Assembly: GCA_041173745.1 (NCBI GenBank)
Contig: JBEDID010000001.1
Coordinates: 1 to 57,949 of the forward strand
Direction of reading: 5' to 3'
DNA from: Candidatus Parcubacteria bacterium
Lineage (GTDB): Bacteria > Patescibacteriota > Minisyncoccia > Phycocordibacterales > UBA918
Length of the DNA: 57,949 bases
Made by a program: the position numbers and the translations under genes. Positions within the stretch are counted from its first letter, which is position 1; every line of letters starts with the position of its first letter. This document shows, piece by piece, positions 6,528 to 55,300 of this stretch. The notes under the pieces are model-generated. The model was given only the letters and a program-made list of their open reading frames with translations, did no database searches and was not told the DNA's origin.

Positions 6528-8288
6528 CTACACCACGTGAGATAAAAAATCATCCTCACTAACTTCAGGAGTAGGGTTGGGGGCTGGCGGTAAACCGGTT
6601 GGTGTTTGAGCGGCAGCGGCTGCGATGTAAGGGAGTTCAATTACACGCTCTAGTTCTTTAAGTGAAGTTAAGCCTTTGATAATTTTTTCGATACCATCTT
6701 CAATCATGGTGGGGATGCCTTGGGGTTTAGCGGCTTCAGCAATGATGTGTTCACGCGGATCACGGATAACTACCTCTTCGACTGCTTCATCCATTACTAC
6801 ACCTTCAAAAATACCGGTTCGTCCTTTGAATCCCGTGCCCGCACATTTGACGCAGCCGGTCGGGCGGTAAATATTAAGCGGGTCAGGAATTGGAAAAGGA
6901 TGAGGGTGACTACCCATAACATAAGTAATAAGTTGTTTTTCTTCGGGTGATGGCTGATAAGCTATTTTACAATCAGTGCACAAGAGGCGAACCAGACGTT
7001 GGCCAATGATGATGTTAATGGAACTGCCCATAATCCGCGGGTCGACTCCCAGATCCATCAAACGCACAAAGCCTGCCACCGCACTATTGGTGTGCAAGGT
7101 ACTGAATACCAAGTGTCCAGTTTGGGCGGCGTGAATGGCGGTCTCAGCCACTTCAGCATCACGAATTTCTCCGACCATAATAATGTCAGGGTCTTGTCGG
7201 AGAATGGCGCGCAAACCAGAGGCAAAAGTGTAGTCGTCACCAGTTTGGGTTTGGACGATACCATCAAGTTTGTATTCCACTGGATTTTCAATCGTGATTA
7301 TTTTTACTCCCTCAGAGTGAGTTTCTTTAAGGAAGGCGTAAAGAGCCGTAGTTTTTCCGGAGCCAGTTGGACCGGTGGTGATAATCAAACCGTTGGGCTT
7401 TTTGAGTTCAAGCTTCATCGCTGCTTCCATATAAGGATTGAGATTTATCTTGTCCATACTGAAACTAGCTGCGGTAGGATCTAAGAGTCGCATTACGATT
7501 GATTCGCCGAGCGCACCAGGAATCACTGAAGAACGAACTTCAATTTGTCGGTCGCCAATATCAAATGTCATACGTCCGTCTTGAGCTTCGGCTTTGGAGT
7601 TGAGAATCATGCCTGAGAGTAATTTCAAGCGCGACATTAAACGACTGAAGATATATTTATCTAGATCAGCAATATCATTCAAAACACCATCGAATCGATA
7701 GCGCAGTCGGATTACGGTTTCTTCCGGTTCGATGTGAATGTCAGAGGCTCTTAAGGCTAGTCCACCAGCAAAGATAAGTTCTAAAGTTTCAGAAATACGC
7801 CGGCTATTGTTGATGGTACTGATTTCGTTAAGGATGACAGCCACATCTTCCTTTTTAGAAATACGCCCAGTTAGTTTGATGATATCAGCAGCACTGATTT
7901 CAAACACTCCTCTTTTTTCGGCAGATGAATCAGTGATGTCTTGGTAGCGTTTCCAGGCATAATTGAGACTGGCGGTTGAGCACATGAAAAGATTGATAGT
8001 GTAGTTGCGCTTTTGTAGTTCTTCCAACAAAGCTTGAAGTTTGGGGCTGTTGGGATTTTTGGTGCCAATTGAGAGGGTGTGGCGGTTGATTTCGTAGCCG
8101 ACCATTTCAGCCGCGCGGGCTTTTTCTTCTGGAATGGCGGTTAAAGCTTCTGGGTTGATACTTAAACCTTGGAGATTAACGTAATCGAATCCTAATTGTG
8201 GTGCGTTCATTTGAATTGAACGTTCTTCTTCACGATTATGTAAATCGCTAATCCTTGCGTTTGAGTATTTATCATCAAAAGTAACCAT
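6528..8288 (-). CDS. pilB: type IV pilus assembly ATPase PilB (GspE family)
   Basis: N-terminal GspE_N-like region, Walker A GPTGSGKTT, Walker B IIMVGEIRD, His box, and a tetracysteine CTDC...CVKC. Confidence 0.9.
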   Translation of the reverse strand: MVTFDDKYSNARISDLHNREEERSIQMNAPQLGFDYVNLQGLSINPEALTAIPEEKARAAEMVGYEINRHTLSIGTKNPNSPKLQALLEELQKRNYTINLFMCSTASLNYAWKRYQDITDSSAEKRGVFEISAADIIKLTGRISKKEDVAVILNEISTINNSRRISETLELIFAGGLALRASDIHIEPEETVIRLRYRFDGVLNDIADLDKYIFSRLMSRLKLLSGMILNSKAEAQDGRMTFDIGDRQIEVRSSVIPGALGESIVMRLLDPTAASFSMDKINLNPYMEAAMKLELKKPNGLIITTGPTGSGKTTALYAFLKETHSEGVKIITIENPVEYKLDGIVQTQTGDDYTFASGLRAILRQDPDIIMVGEIRDAEVAETAIHAAQTGHLVFSTLHTNSAVAGFVRLMDLGVDPRIMGSSINIIIGQRLVRLLCTDCKIAYQPSPEEKQLITYVMGSHPHPFPIPDPLNIYRPTGCVKCAGTGFKGRTGIFEGVVMDEAVEEVVIRDPREHIIAEAAKPQGIPTMIEDGIEKIIKGLTSLKELERVIELPYIAAAAAQTPTGLPPAPNPTPEVSEDDFLSHVV

Positions 8289-47547: not shown

Positions 47548-48072
47548 TTATTCAGTTCGAGTTTTTAGGATGTAGATGTACAACACAATCATAAATCCAA
47601 ACAGAAAAGCTGACAAAAGTGGAAAGGTGACAAAGCCAAATTCAAACATAAATCTTTTGGCGCAATCGCCGCCGGAAGTGGGGCAGGCAATAAACTCATT
47701 GCCGCCCATTTGTAGGTAGTGCTGATACAACGCTACAATTAATCCAGGAATCGAAAGCAATAAACCATACCGAGCGGCTACTTTTTCTTTGTAGAAAATA
47801 GCCATTCCAAGAATAAATACTTGCGGATAAAGAAAGACGCGTTGCGTCCAACATAAACCACACGGTATAAAACCAAAGCCTTCAGAATAAACTAAAGTCA
47901 TGATGCTTGAGCCGAGAGTAAATAAAAACCCAGCCGTCATTCCCCAAACCTTAATGATTTTTTCAAACTCTCTACTGGTGTAAAGGTCTACTAATATTAT
48001 TGAGCTAACCAGCAGAACCGAAATTCCTCCTAGGGCTAAGATAAAGTTTAAAGTCTGCACTGTATCACTCAT
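47548..48072 (-). CDS. disulfide bond formation protein DsbB/BdbC family
   Basis: 4 TM segments, IPCGLCWTQR motif, and a second Cys pair CPTSGGDC. Confidence 0.8.
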   Translation of the reverse strand: MSDTVQTLNFILALGGISVLLVSSIILVDLYTSREFEKIIKVWGMTAGFLFTLGSSIMTLVYSEGFGFIPCGLCWTQRVFLYPQVFILGMAIFYKEKVAARYGLLLSIPGLIVALYQHYLQMGGNEFIACPTSGGDCAKRFMFEFGFVTFPLLSAFLFGFMIVLYIYILKTRTE

Positions 48073-48074
48073 AG

Positions 48075-48488
48075 TTATTGAATTACACAGCCGGTTTTTT
48101 CAGCCAGTTTATCAAATTGTTGGACGCCACTTAATTCGGTACCATCAGTAAATTTCCAAGTGGGGTAGCCGGTAATTTTTTCATCAATACAAACTTGAGT
48201 TTGACCATTACCGTCTTCTAGAGAACATTCTACGTAAGGTAATTTCTTTGAGTTTTCAAATAAGGCTTTTTGTTCCTGACAATGCGGACACCAAAAAGCG
48301 CCGTAAAATACCGCTCCAGCATCAGCTAAACATTGAGCGAATTCATCGGCAGAACTGTTGGAGGCTGTGGCTGTAGAGTTGTCAGCATTAGTAACTGTCT
48401 GAGCAGGAGCCTCAGCTTGGTTGTTAAAAATTAGTAAACCAATAACCGCTACCACCACTACCATCATGTATATATATGTAGTCTTCAT
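48075..48488 (-). CDS. secreted thioredoxin-fold thiol-disulfide oxidoreductase
   Basis: N-terminal TM/signal and a WCPHC active site. Coupled to the dsbB-like gene (2-nt gap). Confidence 0.75.
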   Translation of the reverse strand: MKTTYIYMMVVVVAVIGLLIFNNQAEAPAQTVTNADNSTATASNSSADEFAQCLADAGAVFYGAFWCPHCQEQKALFENSKKLPYVECSLEDGNGQTQVCIDEKITGYPTWKFTDGTELSGVQQFDKLAEKTGCVIQ

Positions 48489-48808
48489 ACCGCTAGCATA
48501 CCATTACACGCTATTCATTTCCAGATAAATAGTCCGTTTGGTTATTATATTGGAAAATTATCTAGAGTATTTTTTATGAGAAGTAGTTGTTTGTTAAATA
48601 AATTGTTATACAATCACTAGTAATAGACACCCGCAAATAAACCTTACTTATTAAATAAAATCTATGGACCTAAATAAATTTGAGGTAAATATTGGTAAAT
48701 AGGGAGGCATCCGATTTAATCTCCATAACCGCCTCCCCATTTACCCTTTGGTACCTAGTCCAACGCCAATACCTCGTATGCTTGTCATCGGGGTAGTTTA
48801 TTAATTGT

Positions 48809-48840
48809 GCCTGTCCCCATTTATGCCTGTCCCCATTTAT
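48809..48840. repeat. tandem 16-mer gcctgtccccatttat x2 (reverse complement contains AATGGGGACAG)
   Basis: Perfect tandem copies at 48809-48824 and 48825-48840. It is the same 11-mer core as the boxes at 52387-52575, but in the opposite orientation. Confidence 0.8.
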
Positions 48841-49031: not shown

Positions 49032-51197
49032 ATGAAAAATGATTCCCTCTTTATCATACCCATGACTACCAAGGTTTCTCAAACCAAGACAGTCTTCCAG
49101 CAACACGATCAGGACATCATCATCAATGCACCAGGTTCTCTTATGGGGAAGTTGGTTGACTTGTGTGACGGTAAATCAACAAAGACGCAGATTGTCGACT
49201 CGCTCACTACTGAGTGGGATCAAGGCTGTGTTGTTGAACTGGTTGACGAACTGTTCCGTCTTGGATTGCTTATCGAACCGAAGTATATATGTGAGGGTAT
49301 GTGGCGATACGCAACAAATCCTTCACGTTACGCTCGTGCAGTCAGCGATCAAGAAGCCACAAACTTGGCAAAAAAAGCCTGGGAGAGACACCAGACTTCG
49401 GCTGTATGCAAATACTACCAGAAATCGACATCCAACTTCAACAATCTTCTCGAAGACAGGTGTTCGACCCGCAACTTCTCGAGGTTGCCGGTCGAAGTTC
49501 AAGTTATTGTGGACATGCTCTGGTCTGGATATGGTGAATGTAGAAATACTAAACGCACCGTTCCATCGGCTGGAGCCCTGTATCCAATCGTGCTGTACTT
49601 GGGGCTCATGCGTTCGTCGGGAGAACTTTCTCCGGGTGTATATCGTGTGAGTGTTAGTCAGATGTGGTCGGTCGGGTTCGAGATGGTGTCAGAAGATATT
49701 GCTAAGTTACAAAGATCTTTTATGGACCCGATGATGGCAGAAAAAGCACACGGGGCAGTGGTTATAGGCGGTTCATTACGACGTACCGCTGAGAAGTATG
49801 GCAACCGCAGTATGCTGTACGTTCCTCTGGAAGCTGGACATGTGGCCCAGAATATCCATCTGTCCGCCTACTCCCATAAACTTGTTACGGTAGAAATCGG
49901 CGGCTTTGCCGAAGATGTGCTACACAAAGCTTGTGGAATGCCAGATGAATACATACCGATGACTACCATTCTGTTTGGTCACCCTTCACAGGAGGTCGAA
50001 AATACGACAGGTGTGTCCGAGGTTGACTGGGTCATGCCTACTGCCAGGTCCTATCAAACACCATTCGCTATTGCGCAAGCACGAGTATCGGCGGAGCTGA
50101 ATGAAGACTGGTCGTATGGGCGAGATGCCTCGCCCAGGATGGCAATGATAAAAGCTGTGTCCGAGGCAAAAGAATGGGCGGCGTGTGGTTGTGTCCCGGA
50201 AGGGTTGTTGAGGGCGCGATTGAAAGACGTACCGAATGCAATCGATCCGAGAGCTGTCATTCAGTTCCATGAAAGTCAGTACAAGCTGACGGGCTTTCCT
50301 CTAAAGCCATTTGACGAGGAAACTGCATATGAGTGGGTGGAAGGAAAAGATGAATTAACGGGTGAAAGCAAATATCTGTTGGCTGATCTTGTCTATTTCC
50401 CATATTTTGGAGAAACTCCACCATACCTATTTGCAAATTCGTCGGGTGTCGCAGCACATCCTGATTCACAAAAGGCAGTTGAATCAAGCGTGCTCGAACT
50501 GATTGAGCGTGACGCTTTTATGGTTGCCTACCTGACCAGCTTGAGTTACCCGACAATATCGGCGAGTTCTTTACCTCAGTATCTGCAGGAGCGCATTTCG
50601 ACCCTTAAGCAAGAAGGTTTTGAAGTTACTATCAAAGATCATACTCTTGACCTGGCACCTGTAGTGACCGTCTTGGTTCAAAACGAGGCATTAGCGTATA
50701 CCAATTGTGCTTCATGCTCTCGTTTTGAAATCGAATCGGCCATAGATCATGCTTTGATGGAGGCTGAAGGTTCAGTCTTAGCAAGACTTCAAAATGGTCC
50801 TGCTCCAGCACTGAAACCGTCGGATGTTGATATGCCTTTGCAACATGGAGCGCTCTACGAACAGAAAGGATATTTTCGTAGAGCCGACTTTATGTTTAAG
50901 GGAGAGGTCTGTATGATGAATGAGTTGCCTGCTCGGGTGAGTAGCTGGGGTGGTTTGCTTGATAGGCTACATCAGATGGAGGTTCCTTTGGTAACCACCC
51001 CGTTCTTTCTTTCGGAACAGTATGGTGGTAATGGTGACTTGTACATCGTGCGCTCAATTATTCCAGGACTTGTACCGATGACCTTCGGGTATCGGCAAGA
51101 GCCTGGTGGTATGAAAAGGCTGTACAACGTGGCTCGTCAGAAAGGTAAGCATTTGAGCTACGGAAACATCCGGAAGTTCCCGCATCCTTTCGCATAA
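49032..51197 (+). CDS. fused RRE(PqqD-like)-SagB-type FMN dehydrogenase-YcaO cyclodehydratase
   Basis: AGGA lies 7 nt upstream of ATG 49032. The N-terminus LVDLCDGKSTKTQIVDSL...VVELVDELFRLGLLIE is PqqD/RRE-like. The middle region RCSTRNFS, PSAGALYP and LEAGHVAQN is SagB/nitroreductase-like. The C-terminal half SSGVAAHPD...SVLELIERDAF and the terminal FPHPFA are YcaO-like. Confidence 0.8.
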   Translation: MKNDSLFIIPMTTKVSQTKTVFQQHDQDIIINAPGSLMGKLVDLCDGKSTKTQIVDSLTTEWDQGCVVELVDELFRLGLLIEPKYICEGMWRYATNPSRYARAVSDQEATNLAKKAWERHQTSAVCKYYQKSTSNFNNLLEDRCSTRNFSRLPVEVQVIVDMLWSGYGECRNTKRTVPSAGALYPIVLYLGLMRSSGELSPGVYRVSVSQMWSVGFEMVSEDIAKLQRSFMDPMMAEKAHGAVVIGGSLRRTAEKYGNRSMLYVPLEAGHVAQNIHLSAYSHKLVTVEIGGFAEDVLHKACGMPDEYIPMTTILFGHPSQEVENTTGVSEVDWVMPTARSYQTPFAIAQARVSAELNEDWSYGRDASPRMAMIKAVSEAKEWAACGCVPEGLLRARLKDVPNAIDPRAVIQFHESQYKLTGFPLKPFDEETAYEWVEGKDELTGESKYLLADLVYFPYFGETPPYLFANSSGVAAHPDSQKAVESSVLELIERDAFMVAYLTSLSYPTISASSLPQYLQERISTLKQEGFEVTIKDHTLDLAPVVTVLVQNEALAYTNCASCSRFEIESAIDHALMEAEGSVLARLQNGPAPALKPSDVDMPLQHGALYEQKGYFRRADFMFKGEVCMMNELPARVSSWGGLLDRLHQMEVPLVTTPFFLSEQYGGNGDLYIVRSIIPGLVPMTFGYRQEPGGMKRLYNVARQKGKHLSYGNIRKFPHPFA

Positions 51198-51232
51198 ACT
51201 GCGACTTAGGGCGAGGAGTATAACTCCTCGCC

Positions 51233-51880
51233 CTATTTTTTATCTAAAAAATCAACAGAGTGTAATTTATAAAGATCACTAGCTCTCAATCCACTTGCTT
51301 TTATTTTTTCTTGTACCAATTTGAAGCCTAGTGAATAGCCGGACCAACGTTTAATGGTGTCGCTGCCGAAGAACCATTCGTCATTTACCCAACCTCGTTG
51401 ATTTAAAATATCGTTTGCTTTAGTCCACAGATCATCCAATTCGTTCTCGGTAAAGGCAGTAGTATAAATAGATGGAGGTAGATCTGGTTGTACTTCTATT
51501 TCAAAATTCTGTGTTAAACCTTCTGCAATCAAAGAGTCTAGTAATGTTCCATTCTCCCACGGTATATATTGCTCACGCACTACATGCATATATTCATGAA
51601 TGAGCGTACGAGCAACTTCTGCCTCGAAGTTATTTTTAAGATGAGGATTGCTCAAATCTAAGTAGATATCAATACATCTAGCATCTTTTGTATATTGTCC
51701 TGAAATACCCAATCCAGGAATTGAGTTTTGTGGACTGTGCCGAACGACAACATCTGTTTCTACTGATTCAGTGAGAAAGATCACTTTGTCCGCTGTTGTA
51801 TCAAAGATGTCTTGCATTTGGCCAGTAACTACTTCTAGTTCTTTATTAGTTTTAAGAAAGTGATAGTGAAAAATTTGCAT
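51233..51880 (-). CDS. DUF2268-like predicted zinc metalloprotease (HExxH)
   Basis: LIHEYMHVVRE (HExxH), TLLDSLIAEGLTQNF and RWSGYSLGFKLV match the DUF2268 pattern. Start taken at ATG 51880. Confidence 0.65.
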   Translation of the reverse strand: MQIFHYHFLKTNKELEVVTGQMQDIFDTTADKVIFLTESVETDVVVRHSPQNSIPGLGISGQYTKDARCIDIYLDLSNPHLKNNFEAEVARTLIHEYMHVVREQYIPWENGTLLDSLIAEGLTQNFEIEVQPDLPPSIYTTAFTENELDDLWTKANDILNQRGWVNDEWFFGSDTIKRWSGYSLGFKLVQEKIKASGLRASDLYKLHSVDFLDKK

Positions 51881-51913
51881 AATTATATTGTAGCAAAGTT
51901 TATAGCTGCTGTA

Positions 51914-51947
51914 TAAAAAAACAGGCGCGGCATTGTTGTGCCACACC
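51914..51947 (-). terminator. intrinsic terminator/attenuator after the small peptide gene
   Basis: The minus-strand RNA is GGUGUGGCA-CAACAA-UGCCGCGCC followed by UGUUUUUUUA. It lies between the peptide stop (51970) and the protease start (51880). Confidence 0.6.
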
Positions 51948-51969
51948 CGTCTGGTGGTTGAAATTGTCC

Positions 51970-52110
51970 TTACTTGTTTTCTGGCTTCTTGCCGCCACAT
52001 CTCCCGTTACCGCCACCGCCACTACGGCACTGTGATTGGAAGTTTCCGCGATCGTTGTGTCCCTGCGGAACGGTTTTGGTTGAAAAAGAGAACTTCTTTT
52101 TAGGTTTCAT
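51970..52110 (-). CDS. 46-aa Lys-flanked Gly/Cys-rich peptide, candidate RiPP precursor
   Basis: Hand translation gives MKPKKKFSFSTKTVPQGHNDRGNFQSQCRSGGGGNGRCGGKKPENK. AAGGA lies 9 nt upstream of the ATG, with its own promoter upstream and a terminator downstream. Confidence 0.5.
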   Translation of the reverse strand: MKPKKKFSFSTKTVPQGHNDRGNFQSQCRSGGGGNGRCGGKKPENK

Positions 52111-52197
52111 ATCTGATTTTCCTTTGAAAAGACCTCCAGGCAAAGATACAGTCGGTGCCACATATTGACAAAGACAGGCCCTTACAATCTAAGGTAA

Positions 52198-52225
52198 AAT
52201 ATATACTAAAACAGCTATAAGTCAA
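52198..52225 (-). promoter_or_regulatory. sigma70-like promoter for the peptide gene (TTGACT-N16-TATATT on the minus strand)
   Basis: The reverse complement of 52220-52225 is TTGACT. The reverse complement of 52198-52203 is TATATT. It lies about 85 nt upstream of ATG 52110. Confidence 0.5.
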
Positions 52226-52513
52226 CAGATTCCGCTGAAATCTCAGCAGTAGATGGTAGAGGGACGATTAATATAAAACACCCTCCACTCTAATTATGAC
52301 CACACAGCTAATGTGGCACACAGAGACTCGCAAAGTCGATGACTGGAAGGTACCCCAAATCTAAGACACCTTTTCTAAGTAATGAAGTAATGGGGACAGT
52401 GAACCGTACCCCTTAACATAGACACGAAATAGAAATAGTGATTTCATTTATGTACACAGTAAATGTTTCCGATACTCCACTGGTGACATTTTTTCTCTGT
52501 GCCATTGCTTGAA

Positions 52514-52575
52514 GTAACGGGGACATTGGTAATGGGCGGTAATGACGGTAATGGGGACAGCGGTAATGGGGACAG
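52514..52575. repeat. array of GGTAATG(GGGACAG) boxes (REP-like), plus an isolated copy at 52387-52399
   Basis: gtaacggggacat, ggtaatgggcg, ggtaatgacg, ggtaatggggacag and cggtaatggggacag lie in tandem directly upstream of the Y1 transposase gene. Confidence 0.75.
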
Positions 52576-53324
52576 TCACGATTTATCCCAAAGAAAATAT
52601 GGCATAATACACACATGCCAAGACTTGCTCGAGTAGACATCGGAAACGAAATATATCACGTAATCAATCGAGCAGTCGGTCGTCTCCAGATATTCAATAA
52701 AGACGAAGATTATAAACTGTTTGAAGACATAATGCTCGAAGCAAAGGATCTGTCTGGCATGAGAATTCTTGCCTACACTATCATGCCTAACCATTGGCAC
52801 TTAGTACTTCATCCGCAAAATGATGGAGACTTAGGAGTATTTATGCACCGATTAACAAACGCTCACACAAGGCGAGTGCACGTTAAGACTGAAACAATTG
52901 GACATGGTCCTCTATATCAAGGTCGGTATAAGTCATTTTTGGTTGACTCAGAGAAATACTTTCTTACCTTGCTTAAGTACGTAGAAAGAAATCCTGTCCG
53001 AGCAAGACTCGCTAAAAGATGCGAAGACTGGAAGTGGGGGAGCGCCTATCGCAGGAGTGCTGGAGAAACTTTTCAAAATCAGATTCTAGATGCCTCACCA
53101 GTTTCTTTTACTCTTGACTATGCAGAATGGATTAATGCTCCTGACACAGAAAGCGACCTTAGTTCAATCCGCATCTCTGTTAATAAAGGGGCACCCTATG
53201 GTAGAGAGAATTGGGTTGAAGCTATGACGAAGCTGTATAAGTTGGAGACAACGCAACGTCTGGCAGGAAGACCGAGGAAAATTAATTAGACCATGGGTAT
53301 TTTCTGAAAAATCGTGACTGTCCC
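52569..53324 (+). mobile_element. IS200-like unit: Y1 transposase gene flanked by perfect 16-bp inverted repeats
   Basis: gggacagtcacgattt (52569-52584) and aaatcgtgactgtccc (53309-53324) are exact reverse complements bracketing the ORF. Confidence 0.6.
52615..53289 (+). CDS. HUH/Y1 transposase, IS200-like (REP-associated tyrosine transposase-like)
   Basis: HUH motif in IMPNHWHLVL and catalytic Tyr region GPLYQGRYKSF. 224 aa with a C-terminal extension. Confidence 0.85.
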   Translation: MPRLARVDIGNEIYHVINRAVGRLQIFNKDEDYKLFEDIMLEAKDLSGMRILAYTIMPNHWHLVLHPQNDGDLGVFMHRLTNAHTRRVHVKTETIGHGPLYQGRYKSFLVDSEKYFLTLLKYVERNPVRARLAKRCEDWKWGSAYRRSAGETFQNQILDASPVSFTLDYAEWINAPDTESDLSSIRISVNKGAPYGRENWVEAMTKLYKLETTQRLAGRPRKIN

Positions 53325-53350: not shown

Positions 53351-55300
53351 ATGAAAGAGAATTGGGAAATTCCGTTGTTGGATAATCGAGTTGTATGTAT
53401 TGCTAATATCGAAAGCGAATCTCTTGTTGCTCAAATTTCTTCCTTGTTTGCAAGAAAGGGTCACTATTTTCCTCTCTATATGTTTCCAAATGTAAATACG
53501 GTGAGTGCTGAGTATGTAGATCGTGATTCTGACGAATTTATTTCAAATATGATTGGAAATGAGTCAGCCGTTTTCATAAATAACAGCATTGCAAAAATGC
53601 AGGGTGCTGAAACCTATCTTTTTGTTGGTCTTAGTGAATTTCAAAAAAGTTATATGTCTCAGTACATAAAGGAATTCGTTGAGATATCTGATCAGAGTGA
53701 GATCGAAACAAAGCTACATTCTATTGCTAATCTGAAGATAGAGATACTTGCTTGCAAGGAGGATGAGCTACTAAAGGGTCTTTATTTAGCCTGTATGAAT
53801 AATAAGCGCCTTGTGGTTGATAATGAGGCAGAATCATTGACTCTAGAACTTAGAGGTAAACAGGGTGTGGTAGGTGTTGAAAAAAGTAGAGAAGGACACA
53901 CATCATCAATTATTGGTGTGAATTATGCAGTATCACTGGATGCAGATTTAATAATCTTAGATCAGGTTTCTAGGCAGGAATTTGAACAAATTGAACGAAG
54001 ACTACAAAGATGGAAAGATGAGAACAATCATAATCACTTTCGTAAAGTTTGTAACAAAGCTAAAAATCGTCTTTCAGAATACGATTTGTCGCAGTATAAG
54101 TATGGGACATTTTTTACTGAGGGAATACCCTACGGACTCGGTATAGATAATCTAATACCTACAACCCATGTCCACTTACATCTAAGGCCGGATTTATTTA
54201 TAATAAATGGGATTGGAACAGAACGGGGCGGTAGATTTCATTCCGCAGTCGTTTTCTCACCACAATTTTTTACCCTAGAAGAAACAGAATCTGTAATAGA
54301 GTTTCTTCAAGAGAAAGAGTATTACGTAAGGGAGTTGGTGGGTGAAGACGCGACAACACAAAACTTAGATTTTCACGCACAGCATTTTCCGTACGACCTA
54401 CTTCATATTTGTAGTCATGGAGGAGAAATGGAAGGTTATGAGGTAACTCTAAAATTTAAAGATAGAAAAGGTGCACTCCACACTATTGTGTATGATGAGG
54501 CGGTTTCATTCTCGCCTGTGCCTGGAAAGGAATTAATATCAGTGCTTCAAAAAGCTTTTTTCCGGACACTCAATGGTTATAAGTGGATGAGTCCGCAACT
54601 GAAAGTAAAAAACTACCCTCAATATGTCTACCAGGATATGTTTAAAGCAGTAAGTAATGACAATACTCCTAGAAAGAAAAAGGCTGGAACAATTCCGTCT
54701 GCTTATGCAATCACAACTTCAGATGGTTTTAACCAGGGTGCATTTAAAATTTTATCTTCTCACAACAACCCAATTATTTTCAATAACTCCTGTTGGTCAT
54801 GGGGTCAGATTGCAACACACTTTATAGTCTCTGGTGCACGAGGCTACATAGGCACTTTATGGAAAATAGGTAACTTAGAAGCGAATATAGCTGCGAGAAG
54901 GTTTTATGCAATGATTAATGACTACTCAATCATGACTTGCCTACATTCAGCGCAGCAAGAAATTAAAGGTACAGAGTCAGAAAATGTATTCCACTACTGG
55001 GGTTTACATTTTACATCGATAGCACAAAACGGCGTCAGTGAAAAAGAAAGTCGCATTCGTGTCTTTTCAGAATTGTTACGCGCTGTTTTTGCATGGATTG
55101 ATAAAGTGAATACAACGGCTAATCCAACTATTAGAAGTAATTCTATACAGGTTGTACACGAGCTCCATAATGAATTACTTACTCATTTTACAGAGGAAGA
55201 CATGGCGAACCTTGAAAAGAAATTCAATGATCTACCAGTTCCTCAGGCAACACCTGAGCTAGGTGAATCGGATCGTAGTTCTGTCGAAAGAAAACATTAA
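53351..55300 (+). CDS. CHAT (caspase-like) protease domain protein with uncharacterised N-terminal half
   Basis: The C-terminal half has LLHICSHGG (His, codon 54416-54418 region), IIFNNSCWSWG (Cys codon 54791-54793) and GYIGTLWKI...ARRFY, the CHAT His/Cys dyad pattern. Confidence 0.65.
   Translation: MKENWEIPLLDNRVVCIANIESESLVAQISSLFARKGHYFPLYMFPNVNTVSAEYVDRDSDEFISNMIGNESAVFINNSIAKMQGAETYLFVGLSEFQKSYMSQYIKEFVEISDQSEIETKLHSIANLKIEILACKEDELLKGLYLACMNNKRLVVDNEAESLTLELRGKQGVVGVEKSREGHTSSIIGVNYAVSLDADLIILDQVSRQEFEQIERRLQRWKDENNHNHFRKVCNKAKNRLSEYDLSQYKYGTFFTEGIPYGLGIDNLIPTTHVHLHLRPDLFIINGIGTERGGRFHSAVVFSPQFFTLEETESVIEFLQEKEYYVRELVGEDATTQNLDFHAQHFPYDLLHICSHGGEMEGYEVTLKFKDRKGALHTIVYDEAVSFSPVPGKELISVLQKAFFRTLNGYKWMSPQLKVKNYPQYVYQDMFKAVSNDNTPRKKKAGTIPSAYAITTSDGFNQGAFKILSSHNNPIIFNNSCWSWGQIATHFIVSGARGYIGTLWKIGNLEANIAARRFYAMINDYSIMTCLHSAQQEIKGTESENVFHYWGLHFTSIAQNGVSEKESRIRVFSELLRAVFAWIDKVNTTANPTIRSNSIQVVHELHNELLTHFTEEDMANLEKKFNDLPVPQATPELGESDRSSVERKH

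What the first reader, a model, noticed from the sequence alone, without database searches (positions are those of the whole stretch)
51914..52225. Autonomously expressed 46-aa Gly/Cys-rich peptide gene as candidate precursor, followed by an HExxH protease
On the minus strand, a TTGACT-N16-TATATT promoter (52225-52198) and an AAGGA SD precede a short ORF (52110-51970). Its product is MKPKKKFSFSTKTVPQGHNDRGNFQSQCRSGGGGNGRCGGKKPENK. A 9-bp stem plus U-run (51947-51914) then separates it from a DUF2268-like zinc protease (LIHEYMHVV). A hairpin between a highly expressed precursor gene and downstream processing genes is a common RiPP arrangement. The C-terminal SQCRSGGGGNGRCGG segment offers Cys/Ser flanked by Gly, which are typical cyclodehydration substrates. 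The pair is convergent with the YcaO fusion, and their ends are 36 bp apart. Caveats: there are only two Cys, the region is GC-rich with an open mirror frame on the + strand, and no family assignment is possible by eye.
Basis: inference. Interest (0 to 1): 0.7.

Follow-up and report, generated by a model that had tools for sequence, protein, structure and literature searches.

The report
Unannotated azole-peptide precursor gene in Parcubacteria
The 46-codon ORF is a real, conserved but unannotated gene that almost certainly encodes the precursor of a thiazole/oxazole-modified peptide, made by the neighbouring one-protein YcaO–dehydrogenase enzyme and probably trimmed by a zinc protease, in a tiny-genome candidate-phyla bacterium.

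Summary
The 46-aa ORF (52110..51970, minus) has a near-consensus promoter, an AAGGA ribosome-binding site and its own terminator.

A homologous small gene lies within 2.5 kb of the RRE–SagB-dehydrogenase–YcaO fusion in 35 of 46 loci with a full-length fusion, including all with the enzyme ≥37% identical. This holds across three gene orders.

The leader motif (K/R)xF(S/E)W is conserved from CPR bacteria to Proteobacteria. Cores vary: Cys-, Ser- or Gly-rich. Core codons differ almost only synonymously (13 synonymous, 0 nonsynonymous, window vs L001).

The enzyme's N-terminus models as a RiPP recognition element. No E1-like or ThiF-like partner gene is present. The DUF2268 protein keeps an invariant HExxH…E.

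Only these three genes co-travel.

Corrections:
- DUF2268 has its own conserved extended −10 promoter, so the hairpin is a terminator, not an intra-operon attenuator.
- The commonest core, QxQC(S/R)SGGGGNG(K/R)CG, is unusually conserved.

Linear azole-peptide clusters in CPR genomes were reported in 2020. This is therefore a new variant (fused enzyme, undescribed precursor family) of a known kind, with no biochemical proof yet.

The parts
52198..52225 (-). Sigma-70-type promoter of the peptide gene (TTGACT-16-TATATT)
   Evidence: Scan. The -35 and -10 boxes are invariant or nearly so in 8 unique relatives, while sequence upstream of -35 is unrelated.
52111..52190 (-). Conserved 5' UTR (~80 nt) with a predicted long stem-loop; AAGGA Shine-Dalgarno at 52124..52120
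   Evidence: The UTR has mostly invariant columns across 8 window-clade loci but contains a 2-nt indel, so it is non-coding. RNAalifold gives -27 kcal/mol with only one-sided compatible changes and no compensatory pairs. Function unknown.
51970..52110 (-). Precursor peptide gene, 46 aa. Leader about residues 1-15 (KKKFSFSTKTV). Conserved core FQSQCRSGGGGNGRCGG.
51919..51952 (-). Rho-independent terminator of the peptide gene (T-run extends to ~51914)
   Evidence: The stem sequence differs between relatives but pairing is kept. A hairpin plus T-run occurs in 16 of 16 unique loci.
51887..51915 (-). Promoter-like site for DUF2268 with extended -10 (TGcTACAAT)
   Evidence: TTTGyTACAAT is invariant in alignment A1.
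51233..51880 (-). DUF2268 zinc metalloprotease (215 aa), candidate leader peptidase
   Evidence: Pfam PF10026, 2.1e-23. H95, E96, H99, E120 and G121 are invariant in 30 homologues next to fusion genes. It is linked to the fusion in 28 of 46 loci.
51207..51235 (+). 13-bp hairpin between the convergent genes, likely a bidirectional terminator
49032..51197 (+). 721-aa fusion enzyme. RRE-like domain about 49032-49316; SagB/nitroreductase domain about 49452-49982; YcaO domain about 50118-51197, ending KFPHPFA.
   Evidence: Pfam and NCBIfam. PDB profile hits to McbC, ThcOx, BmdC, TruD, LynD and MusD. AF2 model of residues 1-120 plus Foldseek. The ATG at 49032 matches the 721-aa database protein P0003.
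48808..48840 (+). Two tandem copies of a REP-like motif (CTGTCCCCATT) on the left flank of the cassette
52387..52576 (-). Three exact copies (plus one degenerate) of the same motif in inverted orientation on the right flank, next to the RAYT-like gene (52615-53289)

Best explanation
The ORF is the structural gene of a ribosomally synthesised, post-translationally modified peptide of the linear azol(in)e type. It is transcribed as its own short monocistronic mRNA with a strong promoter, a conserved structured 5' UTR, a strong SD and its own terminator. The following steps are inferred. The leader motif KKKFSFS(T)K(T)V binds as a beta-strand to the N-terminal RRE domain of the 721-aa fusion enzyme. 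The YcaO domain uses ATP to cyclodehydrate Cys28 and Cys38, and possibly Ser30, of the core QC-R-S-GGGGNG-R-C-GG to azolines. The fused SagB-type FMN dehydrogenase oxidises them to thiazoles and oxazoles. The DUF2268 HExxH...E metalloprotease removes the leader. The product would be a small, cationic, Gly-rich bis-azole peptide. The three genes form a self-contained cassette with no conserved exporter or immunity gene. Shown here: the gene is real, it is under purifying selection at the protein level, and it is linked to the enzymes across about 45 loci. Inferred: the chemistry, the modified residues, the protease's role and the bioactivity.
For: (1) Coding. Across 16 core codons there are 13 synonymous and 0 nonsynonymous differences between the window and L001, and 5-9 synonymous against 1-2 nonsynonymous in other pairs. 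Only this frame is open in all homologues. An SD is present in 16 of 16 unique loci.
(2) Linkage. A peptide homologue lies within 2.5 kb of the fusion in 35 of 46 full-length loci, and in all loci with enzyme identity of 37% or more. Three different gene orders occur. None of the other seven neighbouring window genes tested co-travels (one, the ATPase, has a single hit).
(3) Precursor pattern. The leader (K/R)xF(S/E/K)W is conserved from Parcubacteria to Proteobacteria. Cores vary: GGGGNGKCG, GCCGGK, GCGGCGC, Ser-rich, and DCxC repeats.
(4) Enzyme. YcaO scores 2.9e-35 over the whole Pfam model. SagD TIGR03604 scores 2e-48 and SagB TIGR03605 2.5e-18. PDB hits include McbC, ThcOx, BmdC, TruD and LynD. 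A K255-Y256 pair is invariant; McbC's catalytic pair is K201-Y202 (PMC6395948).
(5) Leader-binding domain. The AF2 model of residues 1-120 has pLDDT 82. Its eight best Foldseek PDB hits are all RRE-containing RiPP-pathway proteins (TruD, LynD, PbtF, ThcOx, TbiB1), and RiPP proteins (TigE, McbB, lasso B1, MccB) make up most of the remaining top hits. PqqD gives weak Pfam hits in 6 of 15 members.
(6) The same core, TQEQCSSGGGGNGxCG, occurs behind an unrelated leader in front of separate, only 27-31% identical YcaO and nitroreductase genes.
(7) The DUF2268 catalytic residues are invariant.
(8) LAP clusters made of YcaO, nitroreductase and a peptidase have been reported in CPR genomes (PMC7298704).
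Against: There are no expression, mass-spectrometry or enzymatic data. The core has only two Cys and two Ser, fewer heterocyclisable residues than classical TOMM cores. Its strong conservation is atypical of hypervariable antibiotic RiPPs. The SagD and SagB NCBIfam scores fall below the curated cut-offs (165 vs 219 bits; 66 vs 78 bits). There is no E1-like or Ocin-ThiF-like partner, which most azoline-forming YcaOs need. RREs fused to dehydrogenases have been called possibly vestigial (PMC7470986). DUF2268 is absent from the proteobacterial loci, so it is not obligatory. No transporter or immunity gene is linked. Foldseek E-values for the RRE are only 1e-3 to 1e-1.
Confidence: 0.8

Rival explanations
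1. The peptide is a YcaO substrate, but the chemistry is not azole formation. It could be backbone thioamidation or amidine/macroamidine formation, with the nitroreductase-like domain doing something other than azoline oxidation.
For: The YcaO superfamily also makes thioamides and amidines. The second-best YcaO-type NCBIfam hit is the McrA-glycine thioamidation family (2.5e-14). The core has few Cys/Ser and many Gly. The SagD and SagB scores are below the curated cut-offs.
Against: No TfuA gene is among the neighbours scanned or co-travelling. The fused domain matches SagB, McbC, ThcOx and BmdC azoline oxidases and keeps an invariant Lys-Tyr pair. The best YcaO matches are SagD-type and cyanobactin heterocyclases. 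Cys or Ser is the common feature of all variant cores.
Confidence: 0.1
2. The small gene encodes an unmodified small basic protein, for example a Cys-containing metal-binding or regulatory peptide. It would be merely co-located or co-regulated with the enzymes, whose real substrate lies elsewhere.
For: The core is highly conserved, as in a folded or functional small protein. The peptide is Lys/Arg-rich. The genes are separate transcription units.
Against: Linkage survives three rearrangements and spans phyla. The N-terminal motif, not the core, is the universally conserved part, as expected for a leader read by the enzyme's RRE. Cores switch between Cys-, Ser- and Asp/Cys-rich types while always keeping heterocyclisable residues. 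The same core recurs next to unrelated YcaO/dehydrogenase pairs. No other candidate substrate gene co-travels.
Confidence: 0.06
3. The locus is primarily a non-coding RNA (a small RNA or regulatory leader), and the ORF is incidental.
For: The 5' UTR is conserved at the nucleotide level more strongly than synonymous sites and can form a long stem-loop. The region is more GC-rich than the window (0.49 vs 0.41).
Against: No Rfam family reaches threshold; the best hit is sraL at 16 bits against a gathering score of 39. The transcript folds no better than shuffles, z = -0.86. The codon-position substitution pattern and frame conservation show protein-level selection. Distant homologues share the peptide but not the UTR sequence.
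Confidence: 0.03

Closest known systems
Linear azol(in)e-containing peptide (LAP) clusters of candidate-phyla-radiation bacteria (Sharrar et al. 2020, mBio, PMC7298704)
   Same: Same lineage and the same gene set: YcaO, nitroreductase-type dehydrogenase, peptidase and a short precursor. That paper counted 110 clusters in 93 CPR genomes, 51 of them Parcubacteria, and 89 clusters had a nitroreductase next to YcaO.
   Different: The published exemplar (Microgenomates) has separate enzyme genes and an 84-aa precursor. In the passages I read, neither the 40-50-aa KKFSW-leader precursor family, nor its conserved GGGGNGKCG core, nor the RRE-dehydrogenase-YcaO fusion is described. I did not read its supplements.
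Microcin B17 system (McbA / McbBCD synthetase, E. coli)
   Same: Both have a Gly-rich core in which Cys/Ser are converted to thiazoles/oxazoles by a YcaO (McbD) and an FMN dehydrogenase (McbC, catalytic Lys201-Tyr202). The fusion's profile hits McbC at 3e-8 and McbD weakly. The N-terminal model resembles the RRE-bearing McbB.
   Different: No peptide search returned a named McbA-like protein. McbB, an E1-like scaffold, is a separate protein in an octameric B4C2D2 complex, whereas here there is one polypeptide and no E1-like domain. McbA has many more modified sites. MccB17 has export and immunity genes (from my own knowledge), and none is linked here.
Cyanobactin azoline oxidase ThcOx / PatG oxidase domain
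   Same: An N-terminal RRE-type winged-helix domain is followed by a SagB-type FMN nitroreductase domain. ThcOx (5LQ4) is hit both by sequence, at residues 131-206, and by the fold of the N-terminus.
   Different: ThcOx is not fused to a YcaO. Its RREs are thought to be dispensable, and leader binding is done by the heterocyclase's own RRE. Here the dehydrogenase-side RRE is the only one in the system.
Fused C-D cyclodehydratases (TruD, LynD, PatD) and F-protein-dependent YcaOs (heterocycloanthracin, thiopeptides)
   Same: A YcaO is joined in one chain with, or partnered by, an RRE-bearing domain that presents the leader.
   Different: In those systems the RRE sits in an E1-like or ThiF-like module. 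Here it is attached to the dehydrogenase, giving the order RRE, then B, then D, and the E1-like module is absent. No paper in the searchable library names such a fusion.

Membership tests
LAP / TOMM (azol(in)e-containing RiPP) gene cluster | YcaO-family cyclodehydratase encoded next to the precursor | tested here: met
   PF02624 2.9e-35 over positions 2-324 of 325. TIGR03604 (SagD) 2.1e-48 over 8-377 of 377, but 165 bits is below the 219-bit cut-off. PDB hits include TruD, LynD, MusD and MJ1094.
LAP / TOMM (azol(in)e-containing RiPP) gene cluster | C-terminal proline-rich PxPxP motif of azoline-forming YcaOs (from my own knowledge: Dunbar et al. 2014) | tested here: inconclusive
   The protein ends ...KFPHPFA. 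F716, P717, H718 and P719 are invariant in 21 homologues. The separate YcaOs of L087 and L088 end YPHPML and FPHPFL. The form is PxPx(A/L), so the third Pro is missing.
LAP / TOMM (azol(in)e-containing RiPP) gene cluster | FMN-dependent SagB/McbC-type azoline dehydrogenase with a catalytic Lys-Tyr pair | tested here: met
   PF00881 2.8e-12. TIGR03605 2.5e-18 (66 bits against a 78-bit cut-off). PDB hits to McbC, ThcOx and BmdC. K255-Y256 is invariant. Equivalence to McbC K201-Y202 is inferred only from the alignment offset (query 151-319 against McbC 92-266), not checked residue by residue.
LAP / TOMM (azol(in)e-containing RiPP) gene cluster | E1-like (C) or Ocin-ThiF-like (F) partner that binds the leader | tested here: not met
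   There is no room for such a domain in the 721-aa fusion (RRE 1-95, dehydrogenase about 141-317, YcaO about 363-721). No such family appears among the neighbours scanned. No further gene co-travels. A fused RRE appears to replace it.
LAP / TOMM (azol(in)e-containing RiPP) gene cluster | Short precursor with a conserved leader and a Cys/Ser/Thr-containing, variable core | tested here: met
   In this window the core has only 2 Cys and 2 Ser.
LAP / TOMM (azol(in)e-containing RiPP) gene cluster | Azol(in)e heterocycles in the mature product | not testable with these tools
   This needs mass spectrometry of the peptide after reaction or from cells.
RiPP recognition element (PqqD-like winged helix) | Three-stranded sheet plus three-helix fold resembling solved RREs | tested here: met
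   AF2 model with pLDDT 82; residues 11-80 score above 87. The eight best Foldseek PDB hits are all RRE-containing RiPP-pathway proteins, and RiPP proteins make up most of the remaining top hits: probability about 1.0, E 1e-3 to 1e-1, rmsd 2.2-3.0 A over about 85 columns. Sequence-level PqqD hits are only weak, best E 0.003.
RiPP recognition element (PqqD-like winged helix) | Binds the cognate leader peptide | not testable with these tools
   Inferred from co-conservation of the F-S-W/F leader motif with the fusion.
Microcin B17 family | Precursor homologous to McbA, and a separate McbB scaffold | tested here: not met
   The peptide searches returned only unnamed or 'hypothetical protein' small proteins, none named McbA. 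There is no McbB-like gene. The resemblance lies only in composition and chemistry.
DUF2268 (PF10026) predicted Zn-dependent protease | Family HMM match and an intact HExxH with a downstream Glu ligand | tested here: met
   83 bits against a 23.6-bit cut-off. H95, E96, H99, E120 and G121 are invariant in 30 cluster-linked homologues. No protease activity or substrate has been tested.
TfuA-YcaO thioamidation systems | TfuA partner gene next to YcaO | tested here: not met
   None among the Pfam-scanned neighbours or the conserved neighbours.
Known RNA families (Rfam 15) | Covariance-model match at the gathering score | tested here: not met
   Only tRNAs reach threshold in the window. The best local sub-threshold hit is sraL, 16 bits against 39.

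The most novel reading that the evidence does not exclude
The RRE-dehydrogenase-YcaO protein is a self-sufficient, single-polypeptide azole synthetase that needs no E1/ThiF partner. Its conserved product, from the core QxQC(S/R)SGGGGNG(K/R)CG kept across many Parcubacteria genera and even behind unrelated leaders and enzymes, is not a strain-specific antibiotic. It would instead be a lineage-wide functional molecule of these reduced-genome episymbionts, for example a host-interaction factor, a signal or a metal-binding factor.
Probability: 0.2. Interest if true: 0.7.

Novelty: new variant of a known kind. Interest (0 to 1): 0.5.

Why it matters
CPR/Patescibacteria have minimal genomes and very little known secondary metabolism. 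A three-gene cassette kept in many of them is therefore likely to matter for their lifestyle.

Practical value:
- The work defines a precursor family that gene callers almost never report. About 30 representatives exist among 1.84 billion proteins, against at least 399 clusters of the enzyme.
- It gives a searchable leader motif.
- It identifies what may be the most compact azole-forming machinery known, with one enzyme carrying the recognition, cyclodehydration and oxidation functions. That is attractive for peptide engineering.
- It gives DUF2268, a family of unknown function, a testable role as a RiPP leader peptidase.

Tried and rejected
- **Known RNA family.** The Rfam gathering scan of the whole window found only tRNAs. 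The permissive scan of 51700-52700 found only chance-level hits. The 286-nt transcript folds no better than shuffles, z = -0.86. Rejected.
- **Longer ORF from the GTG at 52161 (63 aa).** Rejected. The upstream part contains a 2-nt indel between relatives and is not conserved as protein.
- **Plus-strand mirror ORF 51974-52168.** Rejected. Antisense frames are interrupted in most homologues.
- **Family assignment of the peptide.** Pfam and NCBIfam gave no hit for the window peptide or for 7 variants.
- **Structure of DUF2268.** A sequence search of the PDB gave nothing meaningful. The single-sequence model was unusable, pLDDT 36, so no fold search was run.
- **5' UTR covariation.** Seven sequences are too similar and gave no compensatory pairs. 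Inconclusive.
- **Literature.** No paper holds the core-motif strings or names a YcaO-dehydrogenase fusion. DUF2268 appears in only two unrelated papers. The Burkhart 2017 YcaO review is not held, so prior description of B-D fusions cannot be excluded.
- **REP-like motif in other loci.** CTGTCCCCATT was not found in any of the 97 fetched loci.

Full report
**What is there**

The window is a contig of a Candidatus Parcubacteria MAG. The fusion protein matches an NCBI entry from a 57,949-bp contig at 100%.

On the minus strand, 52110..51970 encodes MKPKKKFSFSTKTVPQGHNDRGNFQSQCRSGGGGNGRCGGKKPENK. The surrounding signals are:
- TTGACT-16-TATATT at 52225..52198, the best promoter-like site in 3 kb.
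- AAGGA at 52124..52120, 9 nt before the ATG.
- A hairpin at 51952..51919 plus a T-run, about -22 kcal/mol.

- A DUF2268 protein, 51880..51233, Pfam 2.1e-23.
- A convergent 721-aa protein, 49032..51197, with Nitroreductase (2.8e-12) and YcaO (2.9e-35) domains.
- NCBIfam assigns these domains to the SagB and SagD families, though below the curated cut-offs.

Small corrections: the stem is 14 pairs with wobbles, not 9, and the convergent stop codons are 35 nt apart.

**Is the ORF a gene?**

Yes. It was not called in the source record: the database search returned no identical protein, only two homologues at 67-70% identity. Those homologues lie in the same peptide, DUF2268, fusion arrangement.

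Three lines of evidence show protein-level selection:
- The DNA alignment shows third-position changes.
- Counted over 16 core codons, the window and L001 differ at 13 codons, all synonymous. Other pairs give 5-9 synonymous against 1-2 nonsynonymous.
- Across 16 unique homologues only this frame is always open.

No Rfam family matches, and the transcript is not unusually structured, z = -0.86.

**Is it linked to the enzymes?**

A profile of the fusion retrieved 80 genome loci. tblastn, regular expressions and an HMM of the peptide were run on six-frame translations of these loci. The results:
- A homologous small gene lies within 2.5 kb of the fusion in 35 of 46 loci with a full-length fusion.
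- This includes every locus where the enzyme is at least 37% identical.
- A few more candidates turn up at weaker scores in Proteobacteria.

Three gene orders occur:
- Window clade: fusion(+), then DUF2268(-), then peptide(-).
- Most Parcubacteria: fusion followed by DUF2268 on the same strand, with the peptide gene convergent.
- Others: fusion followed directly by the peptide gene, with DUF2268 convergent or absent.

None of the other seven neighbouring window genes tested (P-type ATPase, DsbB, thioredoxin-like protein, transposase, CHAT protein and two unassigned ORFs) co-travels; only the ATPase has a single hit. The unit is therefore a three-gene cassette.

**Leader and core**

The N-terminal motif (K/R)xF(S/E/K)(W/F)x(V/I) is the universally conserved part, from Parcubacteria to Rhodocyclales, Reyranella and Burkholderiales MAGs.

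Cores differ:
- Window clade: FQSQCRSGGGGNGRCGG.
- Most common: CQEQCSSGGGGNGKCG.
- Others: CSSGKCSGKCN, SCHGCEACTDC, GCCGGK, GCGGCGC, Ser-only (KSRSSSSQSQQSRSS), and a 65-aa peptide with (DC)n repeats.

A conserved leader with Cys/Ser-bearing variable cores is the pattern expected of a RiPP precursor.

The GGGGNGKCG core is unusually conserved. It also occurs behind an unrelated leader, upstream of separate YcaO and nitroreductase genes that are only 27-31% identical to the fusion.

**The enzyme**

Profile searches against PDB sequences hit azoline oxidases (McbC, ThcOx, BmdC) and YcaO heterocyclases (TruD, LynD, MusD). A Lys-Tyr pair, K255-Y256, is invariant in 21 homologues. McbC's catalytic pair is Lys201-Tyr202 (PMC6395948). 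The correspondence is inferred from alignment offsets only.

The protein ends in FPHPFA, close to the PxPxP tail of azoline-forming YcaOs (my own knowledge).

Residues 1-120 gave an AF2 model with pLDDT 82. Its eight best PDB Foldseek hits are all RRE-containing RiPP-pathway proteins (TruD, LynD, PbtF, ThcOx, TbiB1), and RiPP proteins (TigE, McbB, lasso-peptide B1, MccB) make up most of the remaining top hits. Pfam PqqD gives weak hits in 6 of 15 members.

There is neither room nor a neighbouring gene for an E1-like or ThiF-like partner. The architecture is therefore RRE, then dehydrogenase, then YcaO in one chain.

RREs fused to dehydrogenases are known but were suspected to be vestigial (PMC7470986). 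Here the fused RRE is the only one present.

**The protease**

DUF2268 homologues next to 30 fusion genes keep H95, E96, H99, E120 and G121 invariant, an HExxH...EG pattern. A leader-peptidase role is plausible but inferred. Proteobacterial loci lack the gene.

**Transcription**

A strong SD and a hairpin plus T-run (ΔG -15 to -28 kcal/mol) follow the peptide gene in 16 of 16 unique loci. In the window clade a conserved TTTGyTACAAT extended -10 follows the hairpin. In most relatives the peptide gene is convergent with the enzyme genes.

The hairpin is therefore a true terminator of a monocistronic precursor mRNA, not an attenuator within an operon.

The ~80-nt 5' UTR has mostly invariant columns across 8 window-clade loci, more than synonymous sites are. 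It can form a long stem-loop, but no compensatory changes are available. Its function is open; mRNA stabilisation or regulation are possibilities.

**Comparison with what is known**

Sharrar et al. 2020 reported LAP clusters (YcaO, nitroreductase, peptidase) in 93 CPR genomes, 51 of them Parcubacteria (PMC7298704). The kind is therefore known.

In what I could search, the following are not described:
- This precursor family. It has no Pfam or NCBIfam model. About 30-35 called proteins exist, all unnamed. No paper contains the motif.
- The B-D fusion with its own RRE.
- Any role for DUF2268.

**Verdict**

This is a new variant of a known kind. Interest is moderate (0.5): useful for RiPP enzymology and CPR biology, but not categorically new.

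Noticed in passing
window 48808-48840 (+), 52387-52576 (-), 52569-52608 / 53285-53324, gene 52615-53289 (+): The three-gene cassette is bracketed by inverted clusters of the motif CTGTCCCCATT. There are 5 exact copies in the window against 0.8 expected, all of them here, and none in the 97 related loci. The adjacent Y1 transposase gene is RAYT-like (NF047646, 70.6 bits, below the 80-bit cut-off) and is itself flanked by a 40-nt imperfect inverted repeat containing GGGACAGTCACGATTT. This looks like a REP/RAYT system in a CPR genome and may bear on mobility of the cassette.
   Followed up: partly
window 52111-52190 (-); L001, L004, L007, L090, L092, L095 upstream of the peptide gene: The 5' UTR of the peptide mRNA is conserved at the nucleotide level from -35 to the ATG in 8 unique relatives, more than synonymous sites in the CDS. 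It contains a GACTGTA direct repeat and a predicted ~60-nt stem-loop. No covariation is available, and distant loci have different UTRs, several with their own 5' hairpins.
   Followed up: partly
L087 38-2410; L088 1816-4233: Peptides with the same core (TQEQCSSGGGGNGxCG) but an unrelated leader precede separate YcaO (450-470 aa) and nitroreductase (~265 aa) genes that are only 27-31% identical to the fusion. L087 sits next to type-IV-secretion (TraG/VirD4-like) genes.
   Followed up: partly
L036 2586-2783: This is a 65-aa family member with the same leader type (KKKRISFTV) but a very different core made of Asp/Cys repeats: DSDNCGCDCECDSDCQCDCGCGCNCDCAGDCGQD.
   Followed up: no
L008 8194-8330: In this close relative (fusion 80% identical) the peptide gene is inverted relative to DUF2268. 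It also appears frameshifted: leader and core hit in different frames. This is either an assembly error or a pseudogene.
   Followed up: no
L009-L028 (DUF2268 homologues, e.g. L016 ~7230-8040): DUF2268 proteins of the fusion-then-DUF2268 layout are about 270 aa. They carry a conserved ~60-aa N-terminal extension (IEFYFPE...GSIxYAGY...) that the 215-aa window-clade proteins lack.
   Followed up: no
window 53351-55300 (+): A 649-aa protein has only a weak C-terminal CHAT (caspase-like) domain hit (5e-8) and no NCBIfam match. It lies next to the RAYT-like gene and is not conserved near other cassettes.
   Followed up: no
window 47548-48488 (-): A DsbB-like gene and a thioredoxin-fold gene sit just upstream of the cassette. 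They could oxidise Cys in exported peptides, but they do not co-travel with the cassette in other loci.
   Followed up: partly
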